From contig JBAYFP010000004.1 in assembly GCA_041667145.1 (NCBI GenBank), forward strand, positions 9,100 to 73,099: a stretch of 64,000 nucleotides of DNA, read 5' to 3'. The DNA comes from Minisyncoccota bacterium. Its GTDB lineage: Bacteria > Patescibacteriota > Minisyncoccia > Phycocordibacterales > UBA9973. This document shows positions 1 to 63,316 of this stretch, one piece after another. The position numbers and the translations under genes are program-made. Under the pieces are notes generated by a model that saw only the letters and a program-made list of their open reading frames with translations, was not told where the DNA came from and ran no database searches. Numbering within the stretch: position 1 is the first letter of the stretch; each line of letters starts with the position of its first letter.

Positions 1-2086
1 GAAAAAATTGAGAGAGCAGATAGTTTTGTCGAAGAATAAAGCGCACAATATCGATATTTTGGTTGATAGTTTTGCAGTACATGAATTTACTAACAATAAA
101 GAGGGGGCCAGAATGAGATTGCCTGAAGCGTTAGAAAGGGCACTTCTAGAATCTGATGGATTGGTGACGATTTCTTTTGATGTTCCAGCTCAGCATGGTG
201 TTTTTTCTCGGGTCCTCGAGGCAAAGCCCCAGACCAGCTCGAAAAAGCATCATGCTGAGCCTGCACTTTTGGAAGAATTTATAATGTCTTCAAAGTTTGC
301 TTGCAAAAATGATGGTTTTTCTTTTCCAGAAATCGAACCACGTCTTTTTTCTTTCAATTCTCCTTATGGAGCTTGCGAAGTTTGTCATGGATTAGGTTCG
401 AAATATTTCATGGGTGATGAACCATGTGACGCTTGTCATGGTGCACGTTTACGACCTGAAGCGTTGAATGTTTTTATATTTTCCAATTCGCCCCTGCCAA
501 GGGGAGAAAAGAAGAGGGGTCTAAATATTTTAGATATTAGCTCACTTTCTATTGCTGAAGCATCAGAATTTTTTAAAACATTAAAACTTTCTGAACAAGA
601 AAAAGAAATATCTCTTCCTGTTGTTCGTGAGATAGAGGCGCGACTTCAATTTATGTTGGATGTCGGGTTAGACTATTTACAACTTTCTCGAAAGGCAAAT
701 ACGCTCTCGGGAGGGGAGGCGCAACGTATTCGTCTAGCCTCTCAACTTGGTTCTAGGCTTGTCGGTGCTCTATATGTGTTGGATGAGCCTACTATTGGTC
801 TTCATCAGCGTGACAATGATCGCTTGATTAAAACCTTAGAAAACCTACGTGATTTGGGTAATACTATCTTAATAGTTGAACATGACGAGGATACTATTTA
901 TGCGTCTGATTATATAGTGGATATAGGTCCAAAGGCTGGAGTACATGGTGGTAATGTTATTGTCTCAGGATGGCTCGAAGAATTATTAACTGCAAAAAAG
1001 AATACAAATAATTCTAGGACACTTGCTTATCTTCGTGAAGAATTAAAAATAGAAATTCCAGAAAAACGTCGTACATCAAAAGGAGTACTACGAATAATTG
1101 GTGGAAAAGTTTTTAATATAAAAAATTTAAATGTTGACATACCTCTTGGGGTGATGACATCCATCACGGGTGTTTCTGGTTCTGGGAAAAGTTCTTTGAT
1201 GTATGAAATTTTATATAAAAATTTGCAAACACGATATGAACGTAAATATCGTACAGCTAAAGTTTTCAATTGTGCTTCATTTTCTGGTACTGAATATTTG
1301 TCACGAGCTATCCTCATTGATCAATCTCCCATAGGAAGAACGCCACGCTCTAACATAGCCACGTATACTGGGACGTTTACTCATATTCGTGATTTATTTG
1401 CAACGACTGAAGAAGCTCGACTTCGTGGATGGAAAGCAAACCGTTTTTCTTTCAATGTGAAAGGCGGACGTTGTGAAGCTTGTGAAGGTAATGGCCAAAT
1501 AGCTGTAGAGATGCATTTTTTACCAACAGTTTATGTCACTTGTGATGTTTGTAATGGTAAACGTTTTGATAAAGAAACACTTACAGTAAAATATAAGAAG
1601 AAAAATATTTATGAAGTGCTTCGTATGACCGTAGAGGAAGGTTTAGTTTTTTTTAAAGATATTCCAGCTATTTCTGACAGGTTGCACACGCTTATGGGGG
1701 TAGGGCTAGGATACTTAGAACTTGGTCAATCTGCGACAACTCTTTCAGGAGGTGAGGCACAACGTGTAAAGATTTCTAGTGAACTCTACCGTCCACATTT
1801 AGAAAAAACTATCTATCTTCTCGACGAGCCTACTGTAGGCTTACATTATGATGATGTAGTAAAGCTTCTCGAAGTATTAAATAAGCTTGTTTCAAAAGGA
1901 AATACTGTAGTTTTGATTGAACATAACCTTGATATTATCAAAAATTGCGATTATGTTATAGATGTCGGTCCTGAGGGAGGGGTAAATGGGGGAAATTTAG
2001 TAGCTAAAGGTACTCCTGAGGAAATAGCTAATAATCCTAAGAGTTATACTGGGAAATATCTTAAAAGAGCCTTACGAACCAAGTAG
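1..2086 (+). CDS. uvrA: Excinuclease ABC subunit A, C-terminal ~690 aa; the 5' end lies upstream of the window
   Basis: Two ABC signature motifs (LSGGEAQRIRLA, LSGGEAQRVKIS). Zinc-finger CxxC pairs (CEVCHGLG, CDACHG, CEACEGNG, CDVCNG). Walker A GVSGSGKSSL. The reading frame is open to base 1. Confidence 0.92.
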   Translation, partial: KKLREQIVLSKNKAHNIDILVDSFAVHEFTNNKEGARMRLPEALERALLESDGLVTISFDVPAQHGVFSRVLEAKPQTSSKKHHAEPALLEEFIMSSKFACKNDGFSFPEIEPRLFSFNSPYGACEVCHGLGSKYFMGDEPCDACHGARLRPEALNVFIFSNSPLPRGEKKRGLNILDISSLSIAEASEFFKTLKLSEQEKEISLPVVREIEARLQFMLDVGLDYLQLSRKANTLSGGEAQRIRLASQLGSRLVGALYVLDEPTIGLHQRDNDRLIKTLENLRDLGNTILIVEHDEDTIYASDYIVDIGPKAGVHGGNVIVSGWLEELLTAKKNTNNSRTLAYLREELKIEIPEKRRTSKGVLRIIGGKVFNIKNLNVDIPLGVMTSITGVSGSGKSSLMYEILYKNLQTRYERKYRTAKVFNCASFSGTEYLSRAILIDQSPIGRTPRSNIATYTGTFTHIRDLFATTEEARLRGWKANRFSFNVKGGRCEACEGNGQIAVEMHFLPTVYVTCDVCNGKRFDKETLTVKYKKKNIYEVLRMTVEEGLVFFKDIPAISDRLHTLMGVGLGYLELGQSATTLSGGEAQRVKISSELYRPHLEKTIYLLDEPTVGLHYDDVVKLLEVLNKLVSKGNTVVLIEHNLDIIKNCDYVIDVGPEGGVNGGNLVAKGTPEEIANNPKSYTGKYLKRALRTK

Positions 2087-3584: not shown

Positions 3585-3622
3585 CCCCAGTACTAGAGCA
3601 AAGCTCAGTATGGGGCAGGCTG
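3585..3622. repeat. Palindromic hairpin repeat, short-loop copy of an 'ATCCCAGTAsTA...TAsTACGGGACAGG' family
   Basis: CCCCAGTACTAGAGC-AAA-GCTCAGTATGGGGCAGG. Near-identical inverted copy at 5347..5386; related copies at 13542, 51329 and 63240. Confidence 0.55.
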
Positions 3623-3631
3623 TAAAAAGAT

Positions 3632-5347
3632 ATGAGTAAAAATACTGAAAGTAAAATATGTCAGAATTGCAAGGTTGAATTTTTGATTGAGCCAGAAGAT
3701 TTTAAATTTTATGAAAAAATGAAGGTTCCTGCGCCGACTTGGTGCCCGGAATGCAGAACGATAAGAAGAATGATGTATAGGAATGAGCGTTCTTTGTACA
3801 AACAAGATTGTGATCTTTGTAAAAAACCTACGATCTCCATGTATAATCCGGATTATAAATATATTGTTTATTGTACAGGTTGTTATACTTCGGATAATTG
3901 GGATCCTATGAATTTTGGAAAGGATTACGATTTTTCTCGTTCTTTTTTTGAACAACTTGGTGAGCTATTTAGAAGTGTCCCTCGAAGAGCATTGTACCAA
4001 GATTTTGCCGTGAATAGTGAATACACAAATCAAGCAGTTTATATGAAAAATTGTTATCTTTGTTTTGGAGGACATCATTATGAGGATAGTAGTTATTGTG
4101 CGAATGATTTCTTTTTGAAAAATTGTTTGGATGTTGATTTTTCACACAAAAGTGAATTTTGTTTTGAATCATTGCATTTAAAGGATTGTTTCAGAGTGAG
4201 ATATGGATATTATTCCGAAAACTGTATGGATTCTTGGTTTATTTATGGTTGCCGTAACTGTTCTAATTGTGTTGGGTGTACGAATTTATTGAACGAAACA
4301 CACTGTATTTTAAATGAGCAGTACACAAAAGAAGAATATGAAAAAAAATTAAAAGAAATGGATCTTTCTAAATCAGAAAATTTAGAAAAAATGGATAAGA
4401 TATTTTGGGAGAATTCGTTAAACTTCCCAAGAAAGTATGCCAATATAAAAAATATTGTAAATTCCACAGGAGATGACTTAGAGCAAGTTAGAAATTGTAA
4501 ACATTCTTTTTCTCTTACAGAAGATGAAAATATAAAATATTCCTTTTTTGTTCCAACTGGGGCAAAAGATTGTTTTGACTTAGACCATGTAGGGCTTGGT
4601 ACGAGTGAGAGTTATGAACTTCATAGTGCATTTGGAGGTAATAGAGTTTCATTTTCTAATCGGGTTTATTATTCACATGACGTAGAATTTTCAGATGATG
4701 TCTATGATAGTGAAAATATTTTTGCTTGTGCAAGCTTGCGGAAAAAATCCCATTGTATTTTTAATAAACAATATTCTAAAGAAGAGTATGAAATATTGAT
4801 AAAAAAAATAAAGGAACACATGGATACAATGCCATATGTTGATAAAAATGGAAGAATGTTTAAGTATGGCGAATTCTTTCCTATAGAGATCATACCTTTT
4901 AGTTATACAGATTCAGTAGTGCATGAATATTTTCCTTTGACAAAAGAAAAAATATTAGAAAAAGGGTATAAGTATACAGAACCTGAAACAAAAAACTATA
5001 AACCAACTATTTTACCCCATCAATTACCTTCAATAGAAAATGCAGATGAAAAAATTTTGCAAGAAATTATTCAATGTGACCATATGAGAAATTGTAATGA
5101 TAGGTGTACTCTGGCTTTTAGAATAATTCAAAATGAGTTAAACATTTGTAAAATGTTAGGAATTCCATTGCCAAAATTGTGTCCGAATTGTCGTCATATG
5201 TCTAGAATGAATCTTTTGAATCCACCGAGATTATATTCTAGGAAATGTATGAAACCTGATTGTACCAATGAATTTGAAACTCCTTATTCTCCTGACAGAC
5301 AAGAAATAGTATACTGTGAAAAATGCTACCAGCAAGAAGTATATTAG
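3632..5347 (+). CDS. Cysteine-rich multi-zinc-ribbon protein, unknown function (paralog A)
   Basis: 571-aa ORF. N-terminal CxxC...CxxC (CQNCK...WCPECR). Internal repeated CxxC modules followed by (Q/E)Y(T/S)KEEY. C-terminal CxxC...CxxC (CPNCR...CEKCYQQE). About 40-45% identical over its full length to ORF 45183..46886. Confidence 0.8.
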   Translation: MSKNTESKICQNCKVEFLIEPEDFKFYEKMKVPAPTWCPECRTIRRMMYRNERSLYKQDCDLCKKPTISMYNPDYKYIVYCTGCYTSDNWDPMNFGKDYDFSRSFFEQLGELFRSVPRRALYQDFAVNSEYTNQAVYMKNCYLCFGGHHYEDSSYCANDFFLKNCLDVDFSHKSEFCFESLHLKDCFRVRYGYYSENCMDSWFIYGCRNCSNCVGCTNLLNETHCILNEQYTKEEYEKKLKEMDLSKSENLEKMDKIFWENSLNFPRKYANIKNIVNSTGDDLEQVRNCKHSFSLTEDENIKYSFFVPTGAKDCFDLDHVGLGTSESYELHSAFGGNRVSFSNRVYYSHDVEFSDDVYDSENIFACASLRKKSHCIFNKQYSKEEYEILIKKIKEHMDTMPYVDKNGRMFKYGEFFPIEIIPFSYTDSVVHEYFPLTKEKILEKGYKYTEPETKNYKPTILPHQLPSIENADEKILQEIIQCDHMRNCNDRCTLAFRIIQNELNICKMLGIPLPKLCPNCRHMSRMNLLNPPRLYSRKCMKPDCTNEFETPYSPDRQEIVYCEKCYQQEVY

Positions 5348-5386
5348 GGGTGCCTGTCCCGTAGTGAGCTTTGCTCTACTACTGGG
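5347..5386. repeat. Palindromic hairpin repeat, inverted copy of the 3585 element
   Basis: Its reverse complement, CCCAGTAGTAGAGCAAAGCTCACTACGGGACAGGCACC, matches 3585..3622 at about 32 of 38 positions. Confidence 0.55.
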
Positions 5387-9014: not shown

Positions 9015-12008
9015 TTAGCCGTGTTTTTTACTTGTTTCTTCAGGTGCAACAACCATTCGTTGAGATCCGTAATATGCTTTTCTTATTGCTAAAGCTAACA
9101 AGACGAGGAATAGAATAATTAAAAGCCAGCCCAATAAAGTATTGGGTAAAAAACCACTACCTGCTAGAAGTGCTAGTGCTCCTAGTGGGGTAGTATTGTT
9201 TTCTTCTGTTGTTGTAGGTTCACTCCAAACTTGTGCAGAGACATTGGCATTTACTGATTGTGGCTGACCTGAAGGATCAATATAACTCAATATTGCAGGG
9301 AAATTCAAATTTGTTCCGGCGGGGATGTTGTCGCGCACTCGTACTCGGACTGTCACTGTGCCTTGCCCATTTGCTTTCAATGTTCCTAAGTTAAAGATTA
9401 AATTATTACCAGAAATATTTGGGTTACTTGGTGTTGAGGATATGTAGTTTACTTCGTATGGGAGAATCATTTGTAGAGTAAGGTTGGTGATTGCTCCTGT
9501 ACCAATATTTTGATAATTTACAGTGTAATTAATTTCATCTCCCGGACGTGGTCTAGTATTATCTATAGTAGGAACTATTGGTTGATTGCGGTCAACGGAA
9601 GAAGTGATAAGTACTAGAGATGTCGGAGCAGGTTTTGGATTGTTATTAGTAATTACTTGTGCGCGTACATTAACCATTACAGAATCGGTGGATGTTCCGA
9701 AACTATTACTACAAGTGATGGTGTATGTTTTGCTCCCACTCAACGATCCAGTGTAAAAACTAGCTGGGCCAATACTTTTTTCACCTGCCCATCCGATAGA
9801 TCCACCACTTGCATAACAAGATGTTGCACTAATTGTGCCCCATCGTATTGAAGTTGATCCATTGTAAGCTAGATTTGTTTGGTCTGCATCAATGACTACT
9901 GTCGGTTGGTTGTTGATCACTATTGGTATTGGTTGTTGTTGAGTCACGACGTTCACTGTCACTGACTTTATGTCAGAATTACCATTGTAATTTGAACAAG
10001 AAATAGTGTAAGTCGTAGTATATGTTAAAGGGCCAGTGTTAAAAGTATTAGAATAAATGTTTCGTGACCCTGCCCAACCATTACTGCCACCGCTTGCATA
10101 ACAAGATGTCGCATTGATCGGGTACCAACGAATTATAGTACTTCCATTATAAACGACATTTTGTTGATCGGCTGTGAGACTGACGCTTACTGTCGGTCGA
10201 TAATTATTGTAATAATAGTCGCAAGGCAATGTCCCTCTGTAGTTTGTTGCATCGGGGTCCTGACAAGTTGAAACTCGGTGGTAATAACTACATGGTAACG
10301 TTTCTCTGTAGTTTGTTGCATTTGGGTCTTGGCAAGTTAAGATTCGTCTGTAGTAGTCGCAAGGCAATGTTCCTCTATAATTTGTTGCATTTGGGTCTTG
10401 GCAAGTTAAGACTGGTTGGTTTCCGACATAAACTGTTACTAGATCAGAATCTGACCCGACATTATTTGTACAAGTAATACTGTAAGTCGTAGTTGCATAC
10501 AATGCTCCAGTGTAGAAATTACTTGATAAACTATTGTTTGTATTGAAGTTTGTTCCATAACAAGATGTTGCTCTTTCTGATTTCCAAGTGAGGTAAGTGG
10601 AACCACCATAAGAAAGGTTTGTATCAGTCGCTTTTAGTGTCACAGTTGGGGCTTGTGGTATTACAATAGATGAACATGTACTCCCATTCCATGAAGTTCC
10701 TGAAGCACAACTTGAAGTTGCTGTCGCTTGGTCGAGAAGAATAGAACTATTATAAAGATAAAAAGTTTGAGAACTATAAGGAATCGAAACCGATAAATTA
10801 TATCCTGAATTTGCATTGGAAATATTTACGTTTCCTGATTTAGTGACAGCAGAAATACCTTGTGGATTTATTGTGTCCCATGTGAGATTTACATTACAAC
10901 TATTATTTCCTGAAGGGATGATACATGAAGAAGGGTTGAGAGTAAGACTACCAGACATTTGTAATTGCTGTTGACGGACTGTTATGTCCACGAATTCTGT
11001 GGCGTTTCCCCCTGGCCCAGTACATGTGATTGAGTAAGTTTTATTTGAATATAAAGCTCCAGTTGATTCAGTTGTTGTGTTAGAAGAAGCTGTTTTTGGT
11101 CCATACCAAGAACCAGTTGCATTACATGATGTTGCATTAGTTGAAGACCAAGATAATGTAGAAACACCACCGTATGATACTGTCATTGGAGACGCAGTTA
11201 GTGTGACAGTAGGGCGAGGTGTGACTTGTCCATTTACAGTTACACTTGTAAAAGCTTTTGCTTCTCCTGCACTATTAGTACAAGTAATATTAAAAGTTTT
11301 TGTTGAATATAAAGCTCCTGTAGCTTGGCTACCAGAATTTGCTCTGCTTCCAGACCAACCATCTCCACTTGCGATACAAGTCGGATTATTGGTTGAAGAC
11401 CAAAAAATAGTAGAAGAACCTCCGTAAGGGACTTGTGTAGGATTTGCATAAATAGTGACAGTAGGAGGATATGTGATTACAACACATGCTGGATTTGTAT
11501 ATGTTTGAGAAGAAGGACCTGAACAAGTTGCTCCTCCATTAGCAGGACTTGGGTTTGTACATGTACGAGTTTGAACTCCTGAGATTCCACAAGAAGTGTC
11601 TTTTGCACTCCAATCACTCCAGCCACCGTTTATGGGAGTTGGGGTTACGGGGCATGCGGGGGTGGTAAAAGTTTCAGTTGTAGCAGGTATATAAGTACCA
11701 TCACTTTGCACAGCTAATCTATAATAGTAGTTGGTATTTTGGCTTAATCCTGATAAATTAGCACTTACTTCTTTATCATAATTAAATTGCTGATATCCAA
11801 TTCTTGTTCCGTTACCATTTTGGACTGTTGTTCTATCATTTCCCCATTCAAACCAAGCATTCACAGTAGTGTTGTTTGGCCATACATTCCCATATATAGT
11901 TGCACTATTACAGGTGACGTCTGGAATTCTGGCGAAAGCGGTGTTGACACCACAAAAGAGCCCTATAAGAGTTAAAGCGATTAATATGTTTGATTTGATT
12001 TTAGTCAT
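9015..12008 (-). CDS. Large secreted or cell-surface protein with repeated Ig-like/fibronectin-like domains and an LPxTG-like C-terminal anchor
   Basis: 997 aa. N-terminal signal peptide (MTKIKSNILIALTLIGLFCGVNTAFA). Several ~90-aa repeats (…YGG.STL.WSSTNATSC…TGALYS.KTY.ITCT). Three ~24-aa tandem repeats (TCQDPNATNYRGTLPCDYY). C-terminal LPNTL, then a hydrophobic helix and a KAYYG basic tail. Confidence 0.8.
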   Translation of the reverse strand: MTKIKSNILIALTLIGLFCGVNTAFARIPDVTCNSATIYGNVWPNNTTVNAWFEWGNDRTTVQNGNGTRIGYQQFNYDKEVSANLSGLSQNTNYYYRLAVQSDGTYIPATTETFTTPACPVTPTPINGGWSDWSAKDTSCGISGVQTRTCTNPSPANGGATCSGPSSQTYTNPACVVITYPPTVTIYANPTQVPYGGSSTIFWSSTNNPTCIASGDGWSGSRANSGSQATGALYSTKTFNITCTNSAGEAKAFTSVTVNGQVTPRPTVTLTASPMTVSYGGVSTLSWSSTNATSCNATGSWYGPKTASSNTTTESTGALYSNKTYSITCTGPGGNATEFVDITVRQQQLQMSGSLTLNPSSCIIPSGNNSCNVNLTWDTINPQGISAVTKSGNVNISNANSGYNLSVSIPYSSQTFYLYNSSILLDQATATSSCASGTSWNGSTCSSIVIPQAPTVTLKATDTNLSYGGSTYLTWKSERATSCYGTNFNTNNSLSSNFYTGALYATTTYSITCTNNVGSDSDLVTVYVGNQPVLTCQDPNATNYRGTLPCDYYRRILTCQDPNATNYRETLPCSYYHRVSTCQDPDATNYRGTLPCDYYYNNYRPTVSVSLTADQQNVVYNGSTIIRWYPINATSCYASGGSNGWAGSRNIYSNTFNTGPLTYTTTYTISCSNYNGNSDIKSVTVNVVTQQQPIPIVINNQPTVVIDADQTNLAYNGSTSIRWGTISATSCYASGGSIGWAGEKSIGPASFYTGSLSGSKTYTITCSNSFGTSTDSVMVNVRAQVITNNNPKPAPTSLVLITSSVDRNQPIVPTIDNTRPRPGDEINYTVNYQNIGTGAITNLTLQMILPYEVNYISSTPSNPNISGNNLIFNLGTLKANGQGTVTVRVRVRDNIPAGTNLNFPAILSYIDPSGQPQSVNANVSAQVWSEPTTTEENNTTPLGALALLAGSGFLPNTLLGWLLIILFLVLLALAIRKAYYGSQRMVVAPEETSKKHG
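10205..10425. repeat. Three ~72-bp tandem DNA repeats inside the surface-protein gene; they encode the TCQDPNATNYRGTLPCDYY repeats
   Basis: The repeated unit …ctctgtagtttgttgcatygggtcytgrcaagtt… appears three times. Confidence 0.7.
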
Positions 12009-31232: not shown

Positions 31233-31340
31233 GCCCACCACATAGGTAGTGACCGAAGTCACTCATATCCGTTTCCAGATACGGCAGATCGTGCGACCCC
31301 ATATGATGGGTTCTTTATGCACGATCTGACTAACTTTCAC
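31233..31340. other. GC-rich, highly structured intergenic patch inside the AT-rich island; candidate ncRNA or recombination/att site
   Basis: Nested inverted repeats: GTGACCGAAGTCAC; CCGTTTCCAGATACGG; GATCGTGCGA-CCCATATGATGGG-TTCTTTAT-GCACGATC. Confidence 0.25.
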
Positions 31341-31467
31341 CATGCCTTTATTCCTAAAGGTTTAGGCTACTTAAACTATTAACTTGTAAAGAAATTATAC
31401 CTTATTTTTTAAGGTCGCACCATATTAGCTCACATTTAAATATTTGTGTAGTCGAGTTATCAACAGC

Positions 31468-44117: not shown

Positions 44118-44897
44118 ATGAAAATTGAGGTTTTATATGAAGATAAAGATATTTTAGCTATAGATAAGCCGTCTGGTATTTTGGTACACCCCGTACCAGA
44201 ACAAGTTCGGTACGGGGCAGGTCCAGATAAAGAAACTGTTATAGACATATTTAAGAAAAAATATCCCAAACTAGAAATCGTGCATAGATTGGATAAAGAA
44301 ACTTCCGGTGTTTTACTTTTGGCAAAAAATAAAAAAGCACATGAGTTTTTAAAAGATCAATTCAAGAACAGAGAAATAAAAAAAACTTATAATGCTGTCG
44401 TTTCAGGGAATGTAAAAAATGATCATGCCACAATAAATAAACCGATAGGCAGAAGTCCAAAAGATTTTCGTAGACGTCTCGCTGGGCGTGGAGTGAGGGG
44501 GGAACTTCGTGAAGCTATCACTGAGTACAGAGTTTTGAAAAGGTTTGAAACGCAAGCGGAGCATCATAAGATTTTTTATGTGCGAGGGTCCCAACCCGTA
44601 CTCGGGGAAGGGCGCAGTGCTAAAAAATCTTATGATGCTCCGCTGAAGTTTACCTACCTAGAAATTCATCCTAAAACTGGTAGGACACATCAGATCCGTG
44701 TTCATATGAAATTTATAAATCACCCAGTAGCTTGTGATTCTTTGTATAATCCAGATGGTCCATGTTTAGAAGGGTTCAAAAGACTAGCTCTTCACGCGAA
44801 ATCCATAGAGTTCAAAGATCTCAAAGGTAAAATAATAAAAGTGGAATCACTGTTACCGAAAGAATTCAAGAAAATTTTGTTACTAAAAGATAAATAA
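44118..44897 (+). CDS. RluA-family pseudouridine synthase; contains a ~29-aa insertion encoded by a palindromic element
   Basis: LAIDKPSGILVHP, HRLDKETSGVLLLAKN (catalytic Asp), TGRTHQIRVH. Insertion …ETQAEHHKIFYVRGSQPVLGEGRSAKKSYDAP…. Confidence 0.85.
   Translation: MKIEVLYEDKDILAIDKPSGILVHPVPEQVRYGAGPDKETVIDIFKKKYPKLEIVHRLDKETSGVLLLAKNKKAHEFLKDQFKNREIKKTYNAVVSGNVKNDHATINKPIGRSPKDFRRRLAGRGVRGELREAITEYRVLKRFETQAEHHKIFYVRGSQPVLGEGRSAKKSYDAPLKFTYLEIHPKTGRTHQIRVHMKFINHPVACDSLYNPDGPCLEGFKRLALHAKSIEFKDLKGKIIKVESLLPKEFKKILLLKDK
44556..44643. repeat. 88-bp GC-rich palindromic element inserted in-frame in rluA (comparable to Rickettsia RPE-type in-frame palindromic elements)
   Basis: Perfect 15-bp terminal inverted repeats GCGGAGCATCATAAG / CTTATGATGCTCCGC. 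Inner AGATTTTTTA / TAAAAAATCT. Contains CCCAACCCGTACTCGGGGAAGGG. Confidence 0.55.
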
Positions 44898-45182
44898 AAA
44901 AAGGAATATTTCTATCCCTTTTTCATAACTTCATAATAAATTGGCTTAAACTTCCCAAAAGGGAAGCTTTCCTTCGCCCTTTCTTTCCATTTTTTTACCT
45001 GTGAACGGGCTTCTTTTTTATCTTTACATTTCTTGATGTAAAGTGTCCCATTCACGTTTAAAATAACTAGAATCATAACTACTCCTTTATATTTATAAAT
45101 TCAAAAGAAATAATAATGCGTGTCTTTTTTGAATTTACACCCCGTAATAGCAAAAGTCAAAATAATGTATAATATATGAGTA

Positions 45183-46886
45183 GTGGATACAGAAACTAAA
45201 AATTGCCAAAATTGCAAGAAAGACTTTACAATAGAGCCGGAAGATTTTAAATTTTATGAAAAAATAAACGTGCCAGCACCTACATGGTGTCCAGAATGTC
45301 GTGCTATGCGGCGTTTTTCTTTTATGAATGTTTGGAGTCTTTATAAAAGAATTTGTGCTAAATGTGGAGGTGATACTTTATCAGTTTATTCTTTAGATAA
45401 GCCTAATATTGTGTATTGTAACCCTTGTTGGTGGGGTGATTCTTGGGATGGCAGGGAATACGGAATGGATTATGATCCCACTAGATCTTTTTTTGATCAA
45501 CTATATGAGTTGTTTTTAAAAACACCATGGCAAGCTCTTGATAATGAATATGTTAGTAATAAAAATAGTAAATATGTGAATGGTGTTGCCTATCAAAAAG
45601 ATTGTTATATGAATTTTTGGGCAGATTTTTGTGAAAATGTTTTTTATTCATCTTATGAAAATCATTTGAAGGATTCTGTTGATTGTTTGAGAATGATCGA
45701 TTCAGAACTTTGCTATGAGTCCATAGGGTGCAACAAATGTTATCGCGCATTCTTTTCAGAAGAATGTGATTCTTGCACGGATGTTTGGTTTTCACGTGCT
45801 TGTTCTGGATTAGTGAATTGTTTCGGCTGTATAAATTTAAGAAATAAAAGTTATTGCATCTGGAATGAACAATATACCCGTGAAGATTATTTTAAAAAAT
45901 TAAAAGAGTTTTCTATTGATTCTAGAAAGATGTTAGATCAGTTAAGAAAAACTGCTTTTGAATTTTGGATGAAATATCCGAATAGATTTTACATTGGTAA
46001 TAGTCTAAATGTAAATGTTTCTGGGAACTACATATATGAATCAAAAAATACCCACGATTCATATCTTGTTTTATCTGTAGAGGATTCTCGTTTTGTTCAA
46101 TTTGTCAGTGTGGCTTCCACTAAAGGTTGTTATGATTATACTGGTTGGGGAAACGGAGTAGAAAAAATTTATGAGTCTTCGGTTGTAGGAGAAGGAGCTA
46201 ATAACATTAGGTTTTCTCATCAATGCTGGCCCGATGTCTTAGATATAGAATATTCTATTTATGCTAACGCTTGCAAGAATGTGTTTGGTTGTGTCAATCT
46301 CAAAAAGAAAAAATATTGTATCTTAAATAAAGAATATACAAAAGAGGAATACGAAAAACTTAAGAACAAAATCATAGAAGATATGAAAAAGAATCCATAT
46401 ATAGATGAAAAAGGGAGGGTTTGGGCTTATGGAGAATTTTTGCCATTGAAATTTGCACCTTTCGCTTACAATGAGACGATTGCAGGTAATTTTTTTCCAA
46501 TGACAGAGGAGGAGGCTTTGAATAAAGGTTTTAAATGGCAGGAGAGTAAAGAAAATGAGTATAAAATTACAAAAAAAACAGAAAGTTTACCCGATACTAT
46601 ATTAGAAACAGAAGATTCAATTTTGAATGATGTTTTTGCTTGCTCGTCGTGTGATAGGGCTTATCGTTTTACTTTGGGTGAATTAAATTTAATGAAAAAA
46701 CTCTCTTTACCTCTTCCTCGAGAATGTTTTAATTGTAGACAAAGTTTTCGTTTGACTCGTGTGAACTTACCTAAATTATATGAAAGAGATTGTCAAAAAT
46801 GCGGGAATAAGATAAAAACTTCTTATGCTCCTGACAGACCTGAGATTGTTTATTGTGTTAAATGTTACCAGCAAGAATTCGCTTAA
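45183..46886 (+). CDS. Cysteine-rich multi-zinc-ribbon protein, unknown function (paralog B); apparent GTG start
   Basis: 567 aa. Aligns end to end with 3632..5347 (CQNCKKDFTIEPEDFKFYEKINVPAPTWCPECR… / …SYAPDRPEIVYCVKCYQQE). TGTATAAT extended -10 lies 12 nt upstream. Confidence 0.8.
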   Translation: MDTETKNCQNCKKDFTIEPEDFKFYEKINVPAPTWCPECRAMRRFSFMNVWSLYKRICAKCGGDTLSVYSLDKPNIVYCNPCWWGDSWDGREYGMDYDPTRSFFDQLYELFLKTPWQALDNEYVSNKNSKYVNGVAYQKDCYMNFWADFCENVFYSSYENHLKDSVDCLRMIDSELCYESIGCNKCYRAFFSEECDSCTDVWFSRACSGLVNCFGCINLRNKSYCIWNEQYTREDYFKKLKEFSIDSRKMLDQLRKTAFEFWMKYPNRFYIGNSLNVNVSGNYIYESKNTHDSYLVLSVEDSRFVQFVSVASTKGCYDYTGWGNGVEKIYESSVVGEGANNIRFSHQCWPDVLDIEYSIYANACKNVFGCVNLKKKKYCILNKEYTKEEYEKLKNKIIEDMKKNPYIDEKGRVWAYGEFLPLKFAPFAYNETIAGNFFPMTEEEALNKGFKWQESKENEYKITKKTESLPDTILETEDSILNDVFACSSCDRAYRFTLGELNLMKKLSLPLPRECFNCRQSFRLTRVNLPKLYERDCQKCGNKIKTSYAPDRPEIVYCVKCYQQEFA

Positions 46887-46925: not shown

Positions 46926-47333
46926 ATGGCAGGAAATAAAGTAGATAAAACAAAACTCAGTCCAGTAAATATTGAGGAAAGAAAAAAGCTAGATTTTAGT
47001 GCTGGAGACACTGTCCGTGTCTGGTCTAAGGTTCTAGATGAAAAAGGTAAAATACGTTTACAGGCTTTTGAAGGTATCGTACTTGCCCGTAAGCATGGGA
47101 CAGAGATAGGTGCTACCTTTACTGTTCGCAGAGTCGCTTCTGGTGTTGGCGTAGAAAGAATTTTCCCATTATATTCTCCAGCGATTGATAAAATAGAAGT
47201 CACCAAACAATCTCGTGCTCGCAAATCAAAACTTTACTATGTTCGTGCAAAAGCTGTCAAAGATGTTCGCCGAAAATTACGCTCAGTAGTTTCTCAAGAG
47301 GATGAAGTAGTTACAGAAGAAGCAGCTAAATAA
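46926..47333 (+). CDS. rplS: 50S ribosomal protein L19 with a C-terminal extension
   Basis: FSAGDTVRVWSKVLDEKGKIRLQAFEGIVLARKHGTEIGATFTVRRVASGVGVERIFPLYSP. Confidence 0.9.
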   Translation: MAGNKVDKTKLSPVNIEERKKLDFSAGDTVRVWSKVLDEKGKIRLQAFEGIVLARKHGTEIGATFTVRRVASGVGVERIFPLYSPAIDKIEVTKQSRARKSKLYYVRAKAVKDVRRKLRSVVSQEDEVVTEEAAK

Positions 47334-47349
47334 AAACCTAAAAATAAAA

Positions 47350-47372
47350 ACCTCAGGAAGCTGAGGTTTTTA
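47350..47372 (+). terminator. Rho-independent terminator after rplS
   Basis: CCTCAG-GAAG-CTGAGG followed by a T run. Confidence 0.65.
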
Positions 47373-47402
47373 TTTTATTTAATTATGCTAAAATCAAAAA
47401 AT

Positions 47403-63239: not shown

Positions 63240-63316
63240 CCCAGTACTAAAATTTTAACTAATAATCTTTTATCTTTATATCCCGTAATCAAAAATTTAG
63301 TACGGGACAGGTATTT
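63240..63316. repeat. Long-loop hairpin repeat filling the entire thyA-folA intercistronic gap
   Basis: CCCAGTACTAAAATTTTA…AAAAATTTAGTACGGGACAGGTATTT. Arms nearly identical to the copy at 13542..13654. Abuts the folA ATG and the thyA stop. Confidence 0.55.

What the first reader, a model, noticed from the sequence alone, without database searches (positions are those of the whole stretch)
3632..5347. Two paralogous ~570-aa cysteine-rich multi-zinc-ribbon proteins of unknown function (3632..5347 and 45183..46886)
Both begin with a CxxC…WCPECR zinc ribbon (CQNCK.(E/D)F.IEPEDFKFYEK..VPAPTWCPECR) and end with a second ribbon (C.NCR……CxKCYQQE). Between the ribbons each carries repeated modules of the form C..C.GC.NL.N..YCI.N.QY(T/S)KEEY…K. 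I recognise no catalytic motif. Two divergent copies (about 40-45% identity) in 64 kb implies an expanded family. Copy A is bracketed by the hairpin repeats. Copy B appears to start at GTG.
Basis: partly seen in the sequence, partly recalled or inferred. Interest (0 to 1): 0.6.

Follow-up and report, generated by a model that had tools for sequence, protein, structure and literature searches.

The report
Expanded zinc-ribbon beta-repeat protein family
The two genes are real, diverged copies of a very large, uncharacterised protein family found only in the tiny-genome Paceibacteria (Parcubacteria), with zinc-binding ends and a novel repeat core, and in related genomes the family forms tandem arrays next to orphan secretion-type (VirD4-like) ATPases, which gives a first testable lead to its function.

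Summary
ORF A (3632..5347, 571 aa) and ORF B (45183..46886, 567 aa, GTG start) are full-length paralogues (41% identity, E 3e-151).

They belong to a Paceibacteria-restricted family. It has at least 5,000 database clusters and at least 525 loci in GTDB species genomes. No source gives it more than "hypothetical" or "zinc-binding domain" as a name, and no Pfam or NCBIfam model covers its centre.

Each protein is internally duplicated:
- a basic double zinc-ribbon module sits at each end (PF13451-like plus CxxC-x17-CxxC/PF23477-like; N and C modules are homologous, E 8e-24);
- two homologous acidic beta-repeat domains of 12-residue units lie between them (E 2e-30).

AlphaFold gives a confident model (pLDDT 85.5), but Foldseek finds no PDB neighbour.

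In other genomes the family lies in same-strand tandem arrays of up to 7 copies. In 25 of the 80 GTDB loci (19 directly adjacent) the arrays are flanked by orphan VirD4-like T4CP ATPases, some of which carry the same ribbon. B keeps a conserved RluD-B-rplS position.

My best reading (about 0.35) is a non-enzymatic, zinc-stabilised adaptor: constant ribbon ends and a paralogue-specific core, working with those ATPases. The function is not shown.

The parts
3632..5347 (+). Gene A, 571 aa (MFA6585954.1, WCS86_02215), A-type member of the family
   Evidence: ORF. Exact database match P0001. Profile score 872 bits.
3659..3757 (+). A, Zn site 1: treble-clef-like knuckle pair C10/C13...C38/C41 followed by the conserved basic helix R42, R45, R46
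   Evidence: Regex and coordinates. PF13451 scores 16.2 bits, sub-threshold. The Cys are 95-96% conserved in 528 sequences. BFVD 'putative zinc-ribbon domain protein' hits have probability 0.99-1.0.
3809..3883 (+). A, Zn site 2: CxxC-x17-CxxC ribbon C60/C63...C81/C84
   Evidence: The Cys are 70-88% conserved, so about 30% of the family has lost the site.
3986..4351 (+). A, beta-repeat domain M1 (aa 119-240). It is acidic (pI 5.25) and built of 12-residue units. It ends in C207-x2-C210-x2-C213-x2-C216 and the cap GC.NL.N..YCI.N.QYTKEEY.
   Evidence: hhalign of M1 against M2 gives probability 99.8%, E 2e-30. Period 12. Cys conservation and pI. Models.
4427..4831 (+). A, beta-repeat domain M2 (aa 266-400) with the second cap (C366, C375, N378, Y381, KEEY) and a following helix
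   Evidence: The domain-only model has pLDDT around 90 over the M2 strands.
4832..5071 (+). A, conserved linker (aa 401-480) with the GEFFP..(S)PF.Y(N/T)..(V/A)..EYFPLTKE motif
   Evidence: Alignments and conservation.
5072..5344 (+). A, C-terminal double zinc-ribbon module. Zn3 uses C482/(C488)/C492 and C517/C520. Zn4 uses C539/C544 and C562/C565. The module is basic (pI 8.4).
   Evidence: hhalign of the N module (12-88) against the C module (491-569) gives probability 99.6%, E 8e-24. The Cys are 92-100% conserved. PF23477/TIGR04272 match residues 543-569, sub-threshold. There is a weak LIM-like profile hit, E 0.0035.
45183..46886 (+). Gene B, 567 aa, GTG start (MFA6586004.1, WCS86_02485), B-type member. 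It has the same architecture: ribbons at 45204-45302, 45354-45428, 46641-46739 and 46791-46865, M1 at about 45537-45902 and M2 at about 45981-46394.
44118..44897 (+). RluD-like pseudouridine synthase gene. It is the conserved upstream neighbour of B-type genes.
   Evidence: Pfam PF00849. The same RluD-B-rplS order is seen in L084, L086 and L091.
46926..47333 (+). rplS (ribosomal protein L19), the conserved downstream neighbour of B. A perfect-stem terminator at 47341-47376 follows it.
   Evidence: Pfam PF01245. Synteny. Terminator is inverted repeat I7.
3586..3620 (+). Hairpin element 12 nt upstream of the start codon of A
   Evidence: RNA fold -23.7 kcal/mol, z -3.7.
5352..5386 (-). Inverted copy of the same hairpin element, 5 nt after the stop codon of A
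   Evidence: It is 31/35 identical to the upstream copy, with a compensatory change (C:G to G:C).

Best explanation
A and B are two ancient paralogues of a Paceibacteria-specific family of cytoplasmic, zinc-stabilised, probably non-enzymatic recognition or adaptor proteins.

Anatomy (shown). Each end carries a basic double zinc-ribbon module made of a treble-clef-like CxxC...CxxC followed by CxxC-x17-CxxC. That gives two Zn per module and four per protein. Between the ends lie two homologous acidic beta-repeat domains of 12-residue units. Each is capped by the GC.NL.NK.YCI.N.QY.KEEY strand-helix motif. A conserved linker follows.

Mechanism (inferred). The constant ribbon ends, with their invariant Arg-rich helices (R42/R45/R46 and R521/R525/R537), dock onto a common partner. 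That partner would be nucleic acid, or the orphan VirD4-like T4CP ATPases, or both. These ATPases flank the family's tandem arrays and sometimes carry the same PF23477 ribbon. The beta-repeat surface, where paralogue-specific residues concentrate, gives each paralogue its own ligand.

In this genome both copies are solitary. A sits in a DNA-repair and RNA-modification gene run. B sits in the conserved RluD-B-rplS slot.
For: Shown:
- Paralogy and conservation: 41% identity, E 3e-151. A and B each have their own orthologue set.
- Internal duplications of both module types: E 8e-24 and 2e-30.
- 16 ribbon cysteines are conserved. 12 of them, in three sites, are 92-100% conserved. The fourth site (Zn2) is 70-88% conserved.
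- The ribbon modules match PF13451 and PF23477 in 8 and 12 of 32 members.
- The CxxC-x17-CxxC domain type binds zinc experimentally in M. mazei small proteins (PMC12704099).
- The termini are basic (pI 8.1 and 8.4) and the core is acidic (pI 5.25 and 5.65).
- Positions conserved within the A-orthologues and within the B-orthologues, but different between them, make up 14% of M1 and 10% of M2. The figures for the N module, linker and C module are 3%, 3% and 1%.
- No catalytic or other family hit appeared anywhere.
- The AF2 model is confident: pLDDT 85.5, pTM 0.86.
- Family context: 176 copies in 80 GTDB loci are all co-oriented. 51 loci hold at least 2 copies, with up to 7 in 13.7 kb.
- A VirD4/TrwB/HerA-like ATPase lies in 25 of the 80 loci and is directly adjacent in 19. 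Nine of these ATPases carry a CxxC-x17-CxxC motif; the one tested against Pfam (L017) matches PF23477 at E 8.5e-11.
- Three independent look-ups show the same association.
- Array members fall in different deep subfamilies, with a partly conserved order.

A published survey found 5,713 VirD4 homologues in 2,918 CPR genomes. Only 148 lie near virB4, and the authors suggest exaptation (10.1101/2025.01.22.634366). By my rough estimate, about 2 per genome would give about 2-3 of 80 loci by chance.
Against: - No binding, metal content or localisation has been measured.
- The window itself has no T4CP-like ATPase, so the association is family-level only.
- It holds for about 30% of loci, and those loci are phylogenetically related.
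- A-type neighbours vary and are plain housekeeping genes.
- B's conserved neighbours are a pseudouridine synthase and L19, which points as much to RNA and the ribosome as to a translocase.
- The two AF2 models disagree on the strand topology of the core.
- Conserved central cysteines (C198, C207, C210, C213, C216, C366, C375) and acidic residues (E151, D167, E175, E299, D316, E329) could form an unrecognised metal or active site.
Confidence: 0.35

Rival explanations
1. Housekeeping RNA-binding factor. The ribbon modules bind rRNA or tRNA, and the proteins act in ribosome biogenesis or RNA modification. Different paralogues would serve different RNAs or enzymes.
For: - The RluD-B-rplS order is conserved in the window, L084, L086 and L091, with gaps of 4-10 nt in the other three genomes.
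- A terminator comes only after rplS.
- A lies 65 nt upstream of a SpoU methylase and near another pseudouridine synthase.
- P0046 sits between AlaRS and the IF1-S13-S11-S4 block.
- The ribbon modules are basic and Arg-rich.
- Orthologues are under purifying selection, with 55-78% identity.
Against: - CPR genomes are dense with translation genes, so such neighbours are expected often.
- A-type neighbours are not conserved.
- Up to 7 or more paralogues per roughly 1-Mb genome is unusual for a ribosome factor.
- There is no match to any known RNA-binding family.
Confidence: 0.2
2. Translocated cargo. The arrays encode effectors or surface proteins exported through a route that depends on the flanking VirD4-like ATPase and its DUF8128 membrane partner. 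The conserved termini would be the recognition signals and the variable core would bind host targets.
For: - The arrays are flanked by T4CP-like ATPases, and a DUF8128 membrane protein lies upstream of the ATPase.
- There is no Sec signal peptide (sequence).
- Beta-solenoid-like cores and multi-paralogue arrays are typical of adhesins and effectors (established knowledge).
- Paralogue-specific residues lie in the core.
- CPR T4SS genes lack relaxases and are thought to be repurposed.
Against: - The C-terminus ends 5-6 residues after the last zinc ligand, so it has no unstructured T4SS-type tail.
- Zn ribbons indicate a reducing compartment.
- The subfamilies are conserved rather than fast-evolving.
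- No VirB4 or channel genes appear in the neighbourhoods examined.
- The T4CP was reported as non-essential for epibiosis in Ca. Southlakia.
Confidence: 0.15
3. Unrecognised enzyme or redox protein. The CxxCxxCxxC block with C198 in M1, together with C366/C375 and the conserved Glu/Asp of both repeat domains, would form a catalytic metal or Fe-S centre.
For: - Central Cys are 85-97% conserved.
- E151/D167/E175 are mirrored by E299/D316/E329.
- Many beta-helix proteins are enzymes, as the Foldseek hit lists show.
Against: - The motif is not a ferredoxin or radical-SAM pattern.
- There is no hit to any enzyme family.
- The conserved N/D and C/S positions recur every 12 residues, like structural ladders.
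- Subfamily-specific changes hit some of these Cys, for example C156S, C165S and S195C between A and B.
Confidence: 0.1
4. Zinc or metal buffer or store, working with CutA1.
For: - Each protein has 33-34 Cys and at least 4 predicted Zn sites, and genomes carry many copies.
- A CutA1 gene is wedged between the ATPase and the array in 7 loci.
Against: - Strong conservation of many non-Cys residues and of distinct subfamilies is not expected for a simple metal sink.
- CutA1's own function is uncertain (established knowledge).
Confidence: 0.05

Closest known systems
PF13451 zf_Tbcl (IPR025306 'probable zinc-binding / treble clef domain')
   Same: It shares the pattern CxxC - F.(I/F)...(E/D)..FY.K - P..C..CR, with a helix after the second knuckle. 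Eight of 32 family members match at E <= 0.01. BFVD 'putative zinc-ribbon domain proteins' superpose on the model: 40 residues, rmsd 0.7 A, probability 1.0. UniRef names some members 'Zinc-binding domain-containing protein'.
   Different: A and B score below Pfam's cut-off (16.2 and 14.8 bits against 24). The Pfam family is itself uncharacterised, to my knowledge consists mostly of short proteins, and says nothing about the other 480 residues here.
PF23477 zf_Tbcl_2 / TIGR04272 CxxC-x17-CxxC domain (zinc-binding small proteins of Methanosarcina mazei)
   Same: It shares the CxxC-x17-CxxC spacing with '(V/I)YC..C' at the second knuckle. This occurs twice per protein. Twelve of 32 members match (best E 1.2e-5), and some homologues carry the precomputed PF23477 annotation. 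The domain type binds Zn by ICP-MS (PMC12704099).
   Different: A and B themselves are sub-threshold (16-19 bits against 27). Here the domain is always fused behind a treble-clef-like unit, and the pair forms the two ends of a 570-aa protein. The first copy (Zn2) is lost in about 30% of the family.
Beta-helix / beta-solenoid proteins (left-handed LbH acyltransferases and gamma-carbonic anhydrases, right-handed PbH1 lyases and tailspikes, pentapeptide-repeat proteins)
   Same: Nearly all Foldseek PDB hits to both models are beta-helix or beta-solenoid proteins. The core is a short-period repeat with ladders of N/D and C/S.
   Different: The hits have E 0.016-8, TM <= 0.26 and rmsd 9-19 A, so there is no real superposition. 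The period is 12 residues, not 5, 6/18 or about 22. There is no Hexapep, PbH1 or Pentapeptide Pfam hit. The two AF2 models differ in strand topology.
LIM domain (CRP1/CRP2/MLP double zinc finger)
   Same: The family profile aligns residues 515-568 (CPNCR...C...C...YC..CY) with LIM domains of CRP1, E 0.0035. Both are tandem treble-clef-type zinc modules used for protein docking.
   Different: The match is marginal. The ligand pattern here is all-Cys with different spacing. The module's first zinc site uses ligands 25-35 residues upstream. LIM is eukaryotic.
T4CP (VirD4/TraD/TrwB) with its adaptors and substrates, e.g. TraM-TraD
   Same: This is an analogy of working only. A hexameric coupling ATPase is encoded next to proteins it may recognise. 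The neighbouring ATPases match TrwB_AAD_bind, TraG-D_C, T4SS-DNA_transf and DUF87.
   Different: No relaxase, VirB4 or channel genes are nearby. The ~490-520-aa ATPases lack an obvious N-terminal membrane segment (my reading of the L010 and L075 sequences), with a separate or fused DUF8128 protein. Nothing links the family to TraM-like proteins by sequence.

Membership tests
PF13451 zf_Tbcl | Score at or above Pfam's gathering threshold (24 bits) for the domain model | tested here: not met
   A scores 16.2 bits and B 14.8 bits. Eight of 32 relatives match at E <= 0.01, best 2.1e-4.
PF13451 zf_Tbcl | Two CxxC knuckles about 25 residues apart, with the F..FY..K...P..C..CR core and a treble-clef-type fold | tested here: met
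   The motif is at 3659-3757, 45204-45302 and 46641-46739. The Cys are 92-100% conserved. BFVD zinc-ribbon-domain proteins superpose with probability 0.99-1.0.
PF23477 zf_Tbcl_2 / TIGR04272 CxxC-x17-CxxC | Score at or above the curated cut-off (27 bits for Pfam, 36 bits for TIGR04272) | tested here: not met
   A scores 16.1 and 16.2 bits. B scores 19.4 and 15.6 bits. Some homologues do carry precomputed PF23477.2, and 12 of 32 match at E <= 0.01.
PF23477 zf_Tbcl_2 / TIGR04272 CxxC-x17-CxxC | CxxC, 17 residues, CxxC | tested here: met
   The motif is at 3809-3883, 45354-45428 and 46791-46865. In A the C-terminal copy has Cx4C as its first knuckle.
PF23477 zf_Tbcl_2 / TIGR04272 CxxC-x17-CxxC | Binds one Zn per domain | not testable with these tools
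   Shown only for M. mazei small proteins (PMC12704099). ICP-MS on A and B is needed.
Left-handed beta-helix (hexapeptide) transferases / gamma-carbonic anhydrases | Hexapeptide repeat (period 6/18) with a Hexapep profile match | tested here: not met
   No Hexapep hit in A, B or 30 relatives. The repeat period is 12.
Left-handed beta-helix (hexapeptide) transferases / gamma-carbonic anhydrases | Structural superposition on an LbH | tested here: not met
   Best Foldseek hits have E 0.12-8, TM 0.05-0.26, rmsd 10-14 A.
Right-handed parallel beta-helix (PbH1) / pentapeptide-repeat proteins | Significant structural or profile match | tested here: not met
   Domain-only model: best E 0.016, probability 0.12, TM about 0.1. 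No Pfam hit.
LIM domain | C2HC/C4-type eight-ligand double finger recognised by a profile | tested here: inconclusive
   The family profile against PDB gives CRP1 at E 0.0035 over residues 515-568. There is no Pfam LIM hit. The ligand spacing differs.
4Fe-4S ferredoxin-type / radical-SAM cluster motifs | CxxCxxCxxxCP or CxxxCxxC motif with a profile match | tested here: not met
   The motif here is C207-x2-C210-x2-C213-x2-C216. B has L at position 210. No Fer4 or Radical_SAM hit.
Known anti-phage defence proteins (PADLOC) / phage protein families (PHROGs) | Profile match | tested here: not met
   PADLOC has no hit for A or B. In PHROGs, only B hits, weakly, an unknown-function family (E 1e-4). 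There is no tblastn hit in 50,697 phage or 72,556 plasmid records, and one partial hit in 2.9 M viral contigs.
Intein-containing host proteins (considered for over-long tblastn matches) | In-frame insertion within a family member | tested here: not met
   The long matches are adjacent tandem genes separated by stop codons.

The most novel reading that the evidence does not exclude
The family would form a previously unrecognised Paceibacteria-specific translocation or hand-over system. Its other parts would be the orphan VirD4-like ATPases, some bearing the same zinc ribbon, the DUF8128 membrane protein and CutA1. Each zinc-ribbon beta-repeat paralogue would be a dedicated cargo adaptor, or itself an injected effector, used in the episymbiotic lifestyle. 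This would explain why tiny genomes keep 5,713 'orphan' T4CP genes and up to 7 or more copies of a 570-aa protein.
Probability: 0.2. Interest if true: 0.8.

Novelty: categorically new. Interest (0 to 1): 0.55.

Why it matters
Paceibacteria have genomes of well under 1 Mb. Many of them nevertheless keep several to seven or more diverged copies of this 570-aa protein, which is up to about 2% of their coding capacity. No database says more about it than 'hypothetical'.

The central half has no sequence or structural relative, so it may be a new fold.

The recurrent linkage to VirD4-like ATPases, which a recent survey found to be abundant and unexplained in CPR bacteria, turns two unknowns into one testable pair: do these ATPases act on, or with, these zinc proteins?

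If the proteins are instead RNA or ribosome factors, as the RluD-B-rplS synteny suggests, they would be a lineage-specific addition to core information processing.

Either way the family is a good target for structure determination and for experiments in the few cultivated Paceibacteria co-cultures.

Tried and rejected
1. Inteins. Eight tblastn matches were 1.9-2.6 kb long. Translation shows stop codons and a second family gene, so these are tandem copies.
2. LbH acyltransferase or gamma-carbonic anhydrase. Foldseek shows only insignificant similarity, the period is 12 rather than 6/18, and there is no Hexapep hit.
3. PbH1, tailspike or pentapeptide fold. Insignificant.
4. Defence system or phage protein. 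No PADLOC hit, only a weak unknown-function PHROG hit for B, no phage or plasmid tblastn hit, and one fragment in IMG/VR.
5. A conserved operon for A. The neighbours of four A-type relatives examined (58-77% identity to A) all differ: M50 peptidase with Ddl, M50 with MetAP, S11 peptidase with MraY, and AlaRS with IF1 and ribosomal proteins.
6. A T4CP-like ATPase in this window. None found.
7. The hairpins as a known RNA. No Rfam family. Orthologous A loci have no room for them because the gaps are 2-50 nt.
9. Literature searches for PF13451, DUF8128, and CPR with zinc-ribbon paralogues found nothing on this family.
Full report
**1. The observation**

The window contains both ORFs exactly as described. 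A is 3632..5347 (+), 571 aa, ATG start. B is 45183..46886 (+), 567 aa, GTG start.

The ATG seven bases upstream of B's GTG is out of frame. The GTG start reproduces the family N-terminus and the deposited 567-aa protein.

BLASTP of A against B gives 41% identity over the whole length, E 3e-151. All quoted motifs are present. A six-frame profile search finds exactly these two members in the 64 kb.

A equals MFA6585954.1 and B equals MFA6586004.1. Both are 'hypothetical protein' of a Candidatus Paceibacterota MAG.

**2. The family**

A alone retrieves at least 5,854 clusters (90% identity) and B at least 5,337. A profile search of a 50%-identity library gives 5,093 clusters at E <= 1e-3 and 2,203 at E <= 1e-30. 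The 150 best hits listed are nearly all full length.

The named organisms are Nomura-, Lipton-, Staskawicz-, Jorgensen-, Giovannoni-, Wolfe-, Sungii-, Kaiser-, Niyogibacteria and 'Paceibacterota/Minisyncoccia'. A few hits carry other labels. I take the three proteobacterial/Bacteroidales labels to be mis-binned and the many 'uncultured Candidatus Saccharibacteria' titles to be generic pipeline labels.

Names in the sources are only 'hypothetical', 'uncharacterized' or 'Zinc-binding domain-containing protein'.

A and B have separate orthologue sets. The closest A relatives (P0002-P0039) are 68-78% identical to A, and the 120 best hits to B are 54-78% identical to B. Single genomes carry both types, for example Brennerbacteria V1885_00300 and V1885_01540.

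**3. Anatomy**

Profile-profile comparison shows two internal duplications:
- the N-terminal module (residues 12-88) is homologous to the C-terminal module (491-569), probability 99.6%, E 8e-24;
- the central domain M1 (137-239) is homologous to M2 (285-389), probability 99.8%, E 2e-30.

Each terminal module has two parts. The first is a CxxC...P..C..CR unit resembling PF13451. The second is a CxxC-x17-CxxC unit resembling PF23477/TIGR04272. A and B are sub-threshold for both, but 8 and 12 of 32 relatives match at E <= 0.01.

In 528 sequences the ligand cysteines are conserved as follows:

| Site | Ligands | Conservation |
|---|---|---|
| Zn1 | C10/13/38/41 | 95-96% |
| Zn2 | C60/63/81/84 | 70-88% |
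| Zn3 | C482/492/517/520 | 92-100% |
| Zn4 | C539/544/562/565 | 98-99% |

The modules are basic (pI 8.1 and 8.4) and carry invariant arginines after the second knuckle. M1 and M2 are acidic (pI 5.25 and 5.65).

The CxxC-x17-CxxC domain type binds zinc experimentally in M. mazei small proteins (PMC12704099). Zinc binding here is inferred.

M1 and M2 are built from 12-residue units. Lag 12 is the top autocorrelation in both domains. A polar-(N/D/E)-(C/S) position recurs in each unit.

Each domain ends in the family's most conserved motif, GC.NL.NK.YCI.N.QY.KEEY, followed by a helix.

M1 additionally has C198 and C207-x2-C210-x2-C213-x2-C216 (85-97% conserved). M2 keeps C366 and C375.

**4. Structure**

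AlphaFold2 with a 93-sequence alignment gives pLDDT 85.5 and pTM 0.86. The ribbon modules score above 90 and M1 scores about 70.

A domain-only run of residues 116-402 with 150 sequences gives pLDDT 79. It places long 10-residue strands with 2-residue turns in M2 (about 90). It also places isolated bridges every third residue over the CxxCxxCxxC block. The two models therefore disagree on topology.

Foldseek against the PDB gives no hit better than E 0.016. Nearly every weak hit is a beta-helix protein (gamma-carbonic anhydrase, LpxD, GlmU, AlgE4, tailspikes, Qnr), but TM-scores are at most 0.26 and rmsd values are 9-19 A.

Against BFVD only short 'putative zinc-ribbon domain' proteins match the termini. 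A PDB sequence-profile search gives only a marginal LIM-domain alignment of residues 515-568.

I conclude that the core is a beta-rich repeat domain, probably solenoid-like, with no demonstrable relative.

**5. Genomic behaviour of the family**

In the 80 GTDB loci (gene plus or minus 6 kb) the profile finds 176 family ORFs, all on the same strand. 51 loci have at least 2 copies, 24 have at least 3, 14 have at least 4, and the maximum is 7 in 13.7 kb (L007). Consecutive copies are a median of about 36 nt apart.

The over-long tblastn matches that looked like inteins are these tandem neighbours.

Array members fall into different deep subfamilies (26 groups at 45% identity). The order recurs in part, for example groups 2-8-21 in L012 and L031. 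The arrays are therefore old, not recent amplifications.

Between the A and B orthologue sets, positions conserved within each set but different between them are concentrated in M1 (14%) and M2 (10%). The N module, linker and C module have 3%, 3% and 1%. The ends are constant and the core is paralogue-specific.

**6. Neighbours**

Clustering all ORFs of the loci shows one outstanding non-family neighbour. It is a roughly 490-930-aa P-loop ATPase matching TrwB_AAD_bind, TraG-D_C, T4SS-DNA_transf and DUF87, that is, a VirD4-like coupling protein.

- It is present in 25 of the 80 GTDB loci, with one exception on the same strand as the family genes.
- It is directly adjacent to a family gene in 19 loci.
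- Nine of these ATPases carry a C-terminal CxxC-x17-CxxC ribbon; the one tested against Pfam (L017) matches PF23477 at E 8.5e-11.

Three further independent look-ups show arrays of 5-7 genes ending at such an ATPase. Recurrent companions are:
- a DUF8128 membrane protein upstream of the ATPase (7 loci; fused to it in L049);
- CutA1, between the ATPase and the array or directly upstream of a family gene (7 loci);
- DnaJ/DnaK (8-9 loci);
- a sigma70-r4/HARE-HTH protein.

A recent survey counted 5,713 VirD4 homologues in 2,918 CPR genomes. Only 148 lie near virB4, and the authors raised exaptation (10.1101/2025.01.22.634366). At about 2 per genome, chance would put one in only about 2-3 of 80 such loci. 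This is my rough estimate.

**7. The two window copies**

Neither copy is near such an ATPase.

A lies between uvrA(3')-uvrC and a SpoU methylase. Fpg, RuvA and a pseudouridine synthase follow on the other strand. The neighbours of the four A-type relatives examined (58-77% identity to A) all differ.

A is bracketed by inverted copies of a 35-nt hairpin element.

B lies between an RluD-like pseudouridine synthase and rplS, with a terminator only after rplS. The same RluD-B-rplS order is kept in three other genomes at 56-66% identity. Other B-like genes sit inside ATPase-flanked arrays.

**8. Interpretation**

*Shown.* These are real, conserved, internally duplicated, Cys-rich proteins with four canonical zinc-ribbon-type sites. 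The central repeat domain has no known relative. The multigene family is lineage-restricted, lies in old tandem arrays, and is recurrently linked to orphan T4CP-like ATPases.

*Inferred (confidence about 0.35).* They are cytoplasmic, non-enzymatic recognition or adaptor proteins. The constant basic ribbon ends would dock on a common partner, either nucleic acid or the T4CP-like ATPase. The paralogue-specific acidic core would select each paralogue's ligand.

*Rivals:*
- an RNA or ribosome-associated factor (0.2, from B's synteny and the RNA-modification neighbours);
- exported or injected cargo of the T4CP route (0.15; the structured C-terminus and slow evolution argue against it);
- an unrecognised metallo- or Fe-S enzyme (0.1);
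- a metal buffer working with CutA1 (0.05).

**9. Novelty**

Only the terminal ribbons touch known domain families, and those families are themselves uncharacterised. Half of the protein, its architecture and its genomic behaviour match nothing described that I could find.

I rate it as lying outside known kinds, while stressing that function is unproven. Interest is moderate to high for CPR biology and modest elsewhere.

Noticed in passing
window 3586-3620 (+), 5352-5386 (-), 63240-63312: A 35-nt hairpin element occurs as inverted copies immediately flanking gene A. The copies are 31/35 identical, with a compensatory C:G to G:C change in the stem. A third, split relative has the arms CCCAGTACTA...TAGTACGGGACAGG around an AT-rich insert of about 50 nt. 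There is no Rfam match. The element could be a MITE-like or REP-like element, or a transcript-end structure.
   Followed up: partly
window 31248-31368 (-): Full-length match to the Rfam LOOT RNA (RF03000), 73.6 bits against a gathering score of 46.4.
   Followed up: no
window 44912-45076 (-): A 54-aa ORF (MILVILNVNGTLYIKKCKDKK...) with a plausible AAAGGAG ribosome-binding site occupies the 285-nt gap between the RluD-like gene and B. In orthologous loci (L084, L086, L091) that gap is only 4-10 nt, so this looks like an insertion.
   Followed up: partly
window 9015-12008 (-): A 997-aa ORF has DUF11 and thrombospondin type-1 domain hits. It is a likely large surface protein, and the TSP1 hit is unusual for a bacterium.
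   Followed up: no
L085 12529-13188; L024, L030, L042, L046, L051, L085, L090: Inside or beside related arrays there is a HicB-like/ParE-like toxin-antitoxin pair. A CutA1 gene repeatedly lies between the T4CP-like ATPase and the first or last family gene, or directly upstream of a family gene.
   Followed up: partly
L005, L030, L039, L044, L073, L078, L085: A conserved block SecD/SecF - sigma70-r4/HARE-HTH protein - DUF8128 membrane protein - T4CP-like ATPase precedes family arrays in several Paceibacteria. In L049 the DUF8128 part is fused to the ATPase.
   Followed up: partly
window 45183-46886, residues 139-239 of B: The M1 domain of B gives a weak hit to phrog_15341 (unknown function), E 1e-4. 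A lone partial family match lies at the end of one IMG/VR contig (L083 5832-5966).
   Followed up: no
window 8-2086 (+): The ORF at the window start is the 3' part of uvrA (ABC_tran, UvrA_inter, and a sub-threshold DnaJ_CXXCXGXG-type zinc-finger hit, 29.2 bits against a 32.7 cut-off). It is followed by uvrC. With Fpg and RuvA this forms a small DNA-repair neighbourhood around gene A.
   Followed up: no
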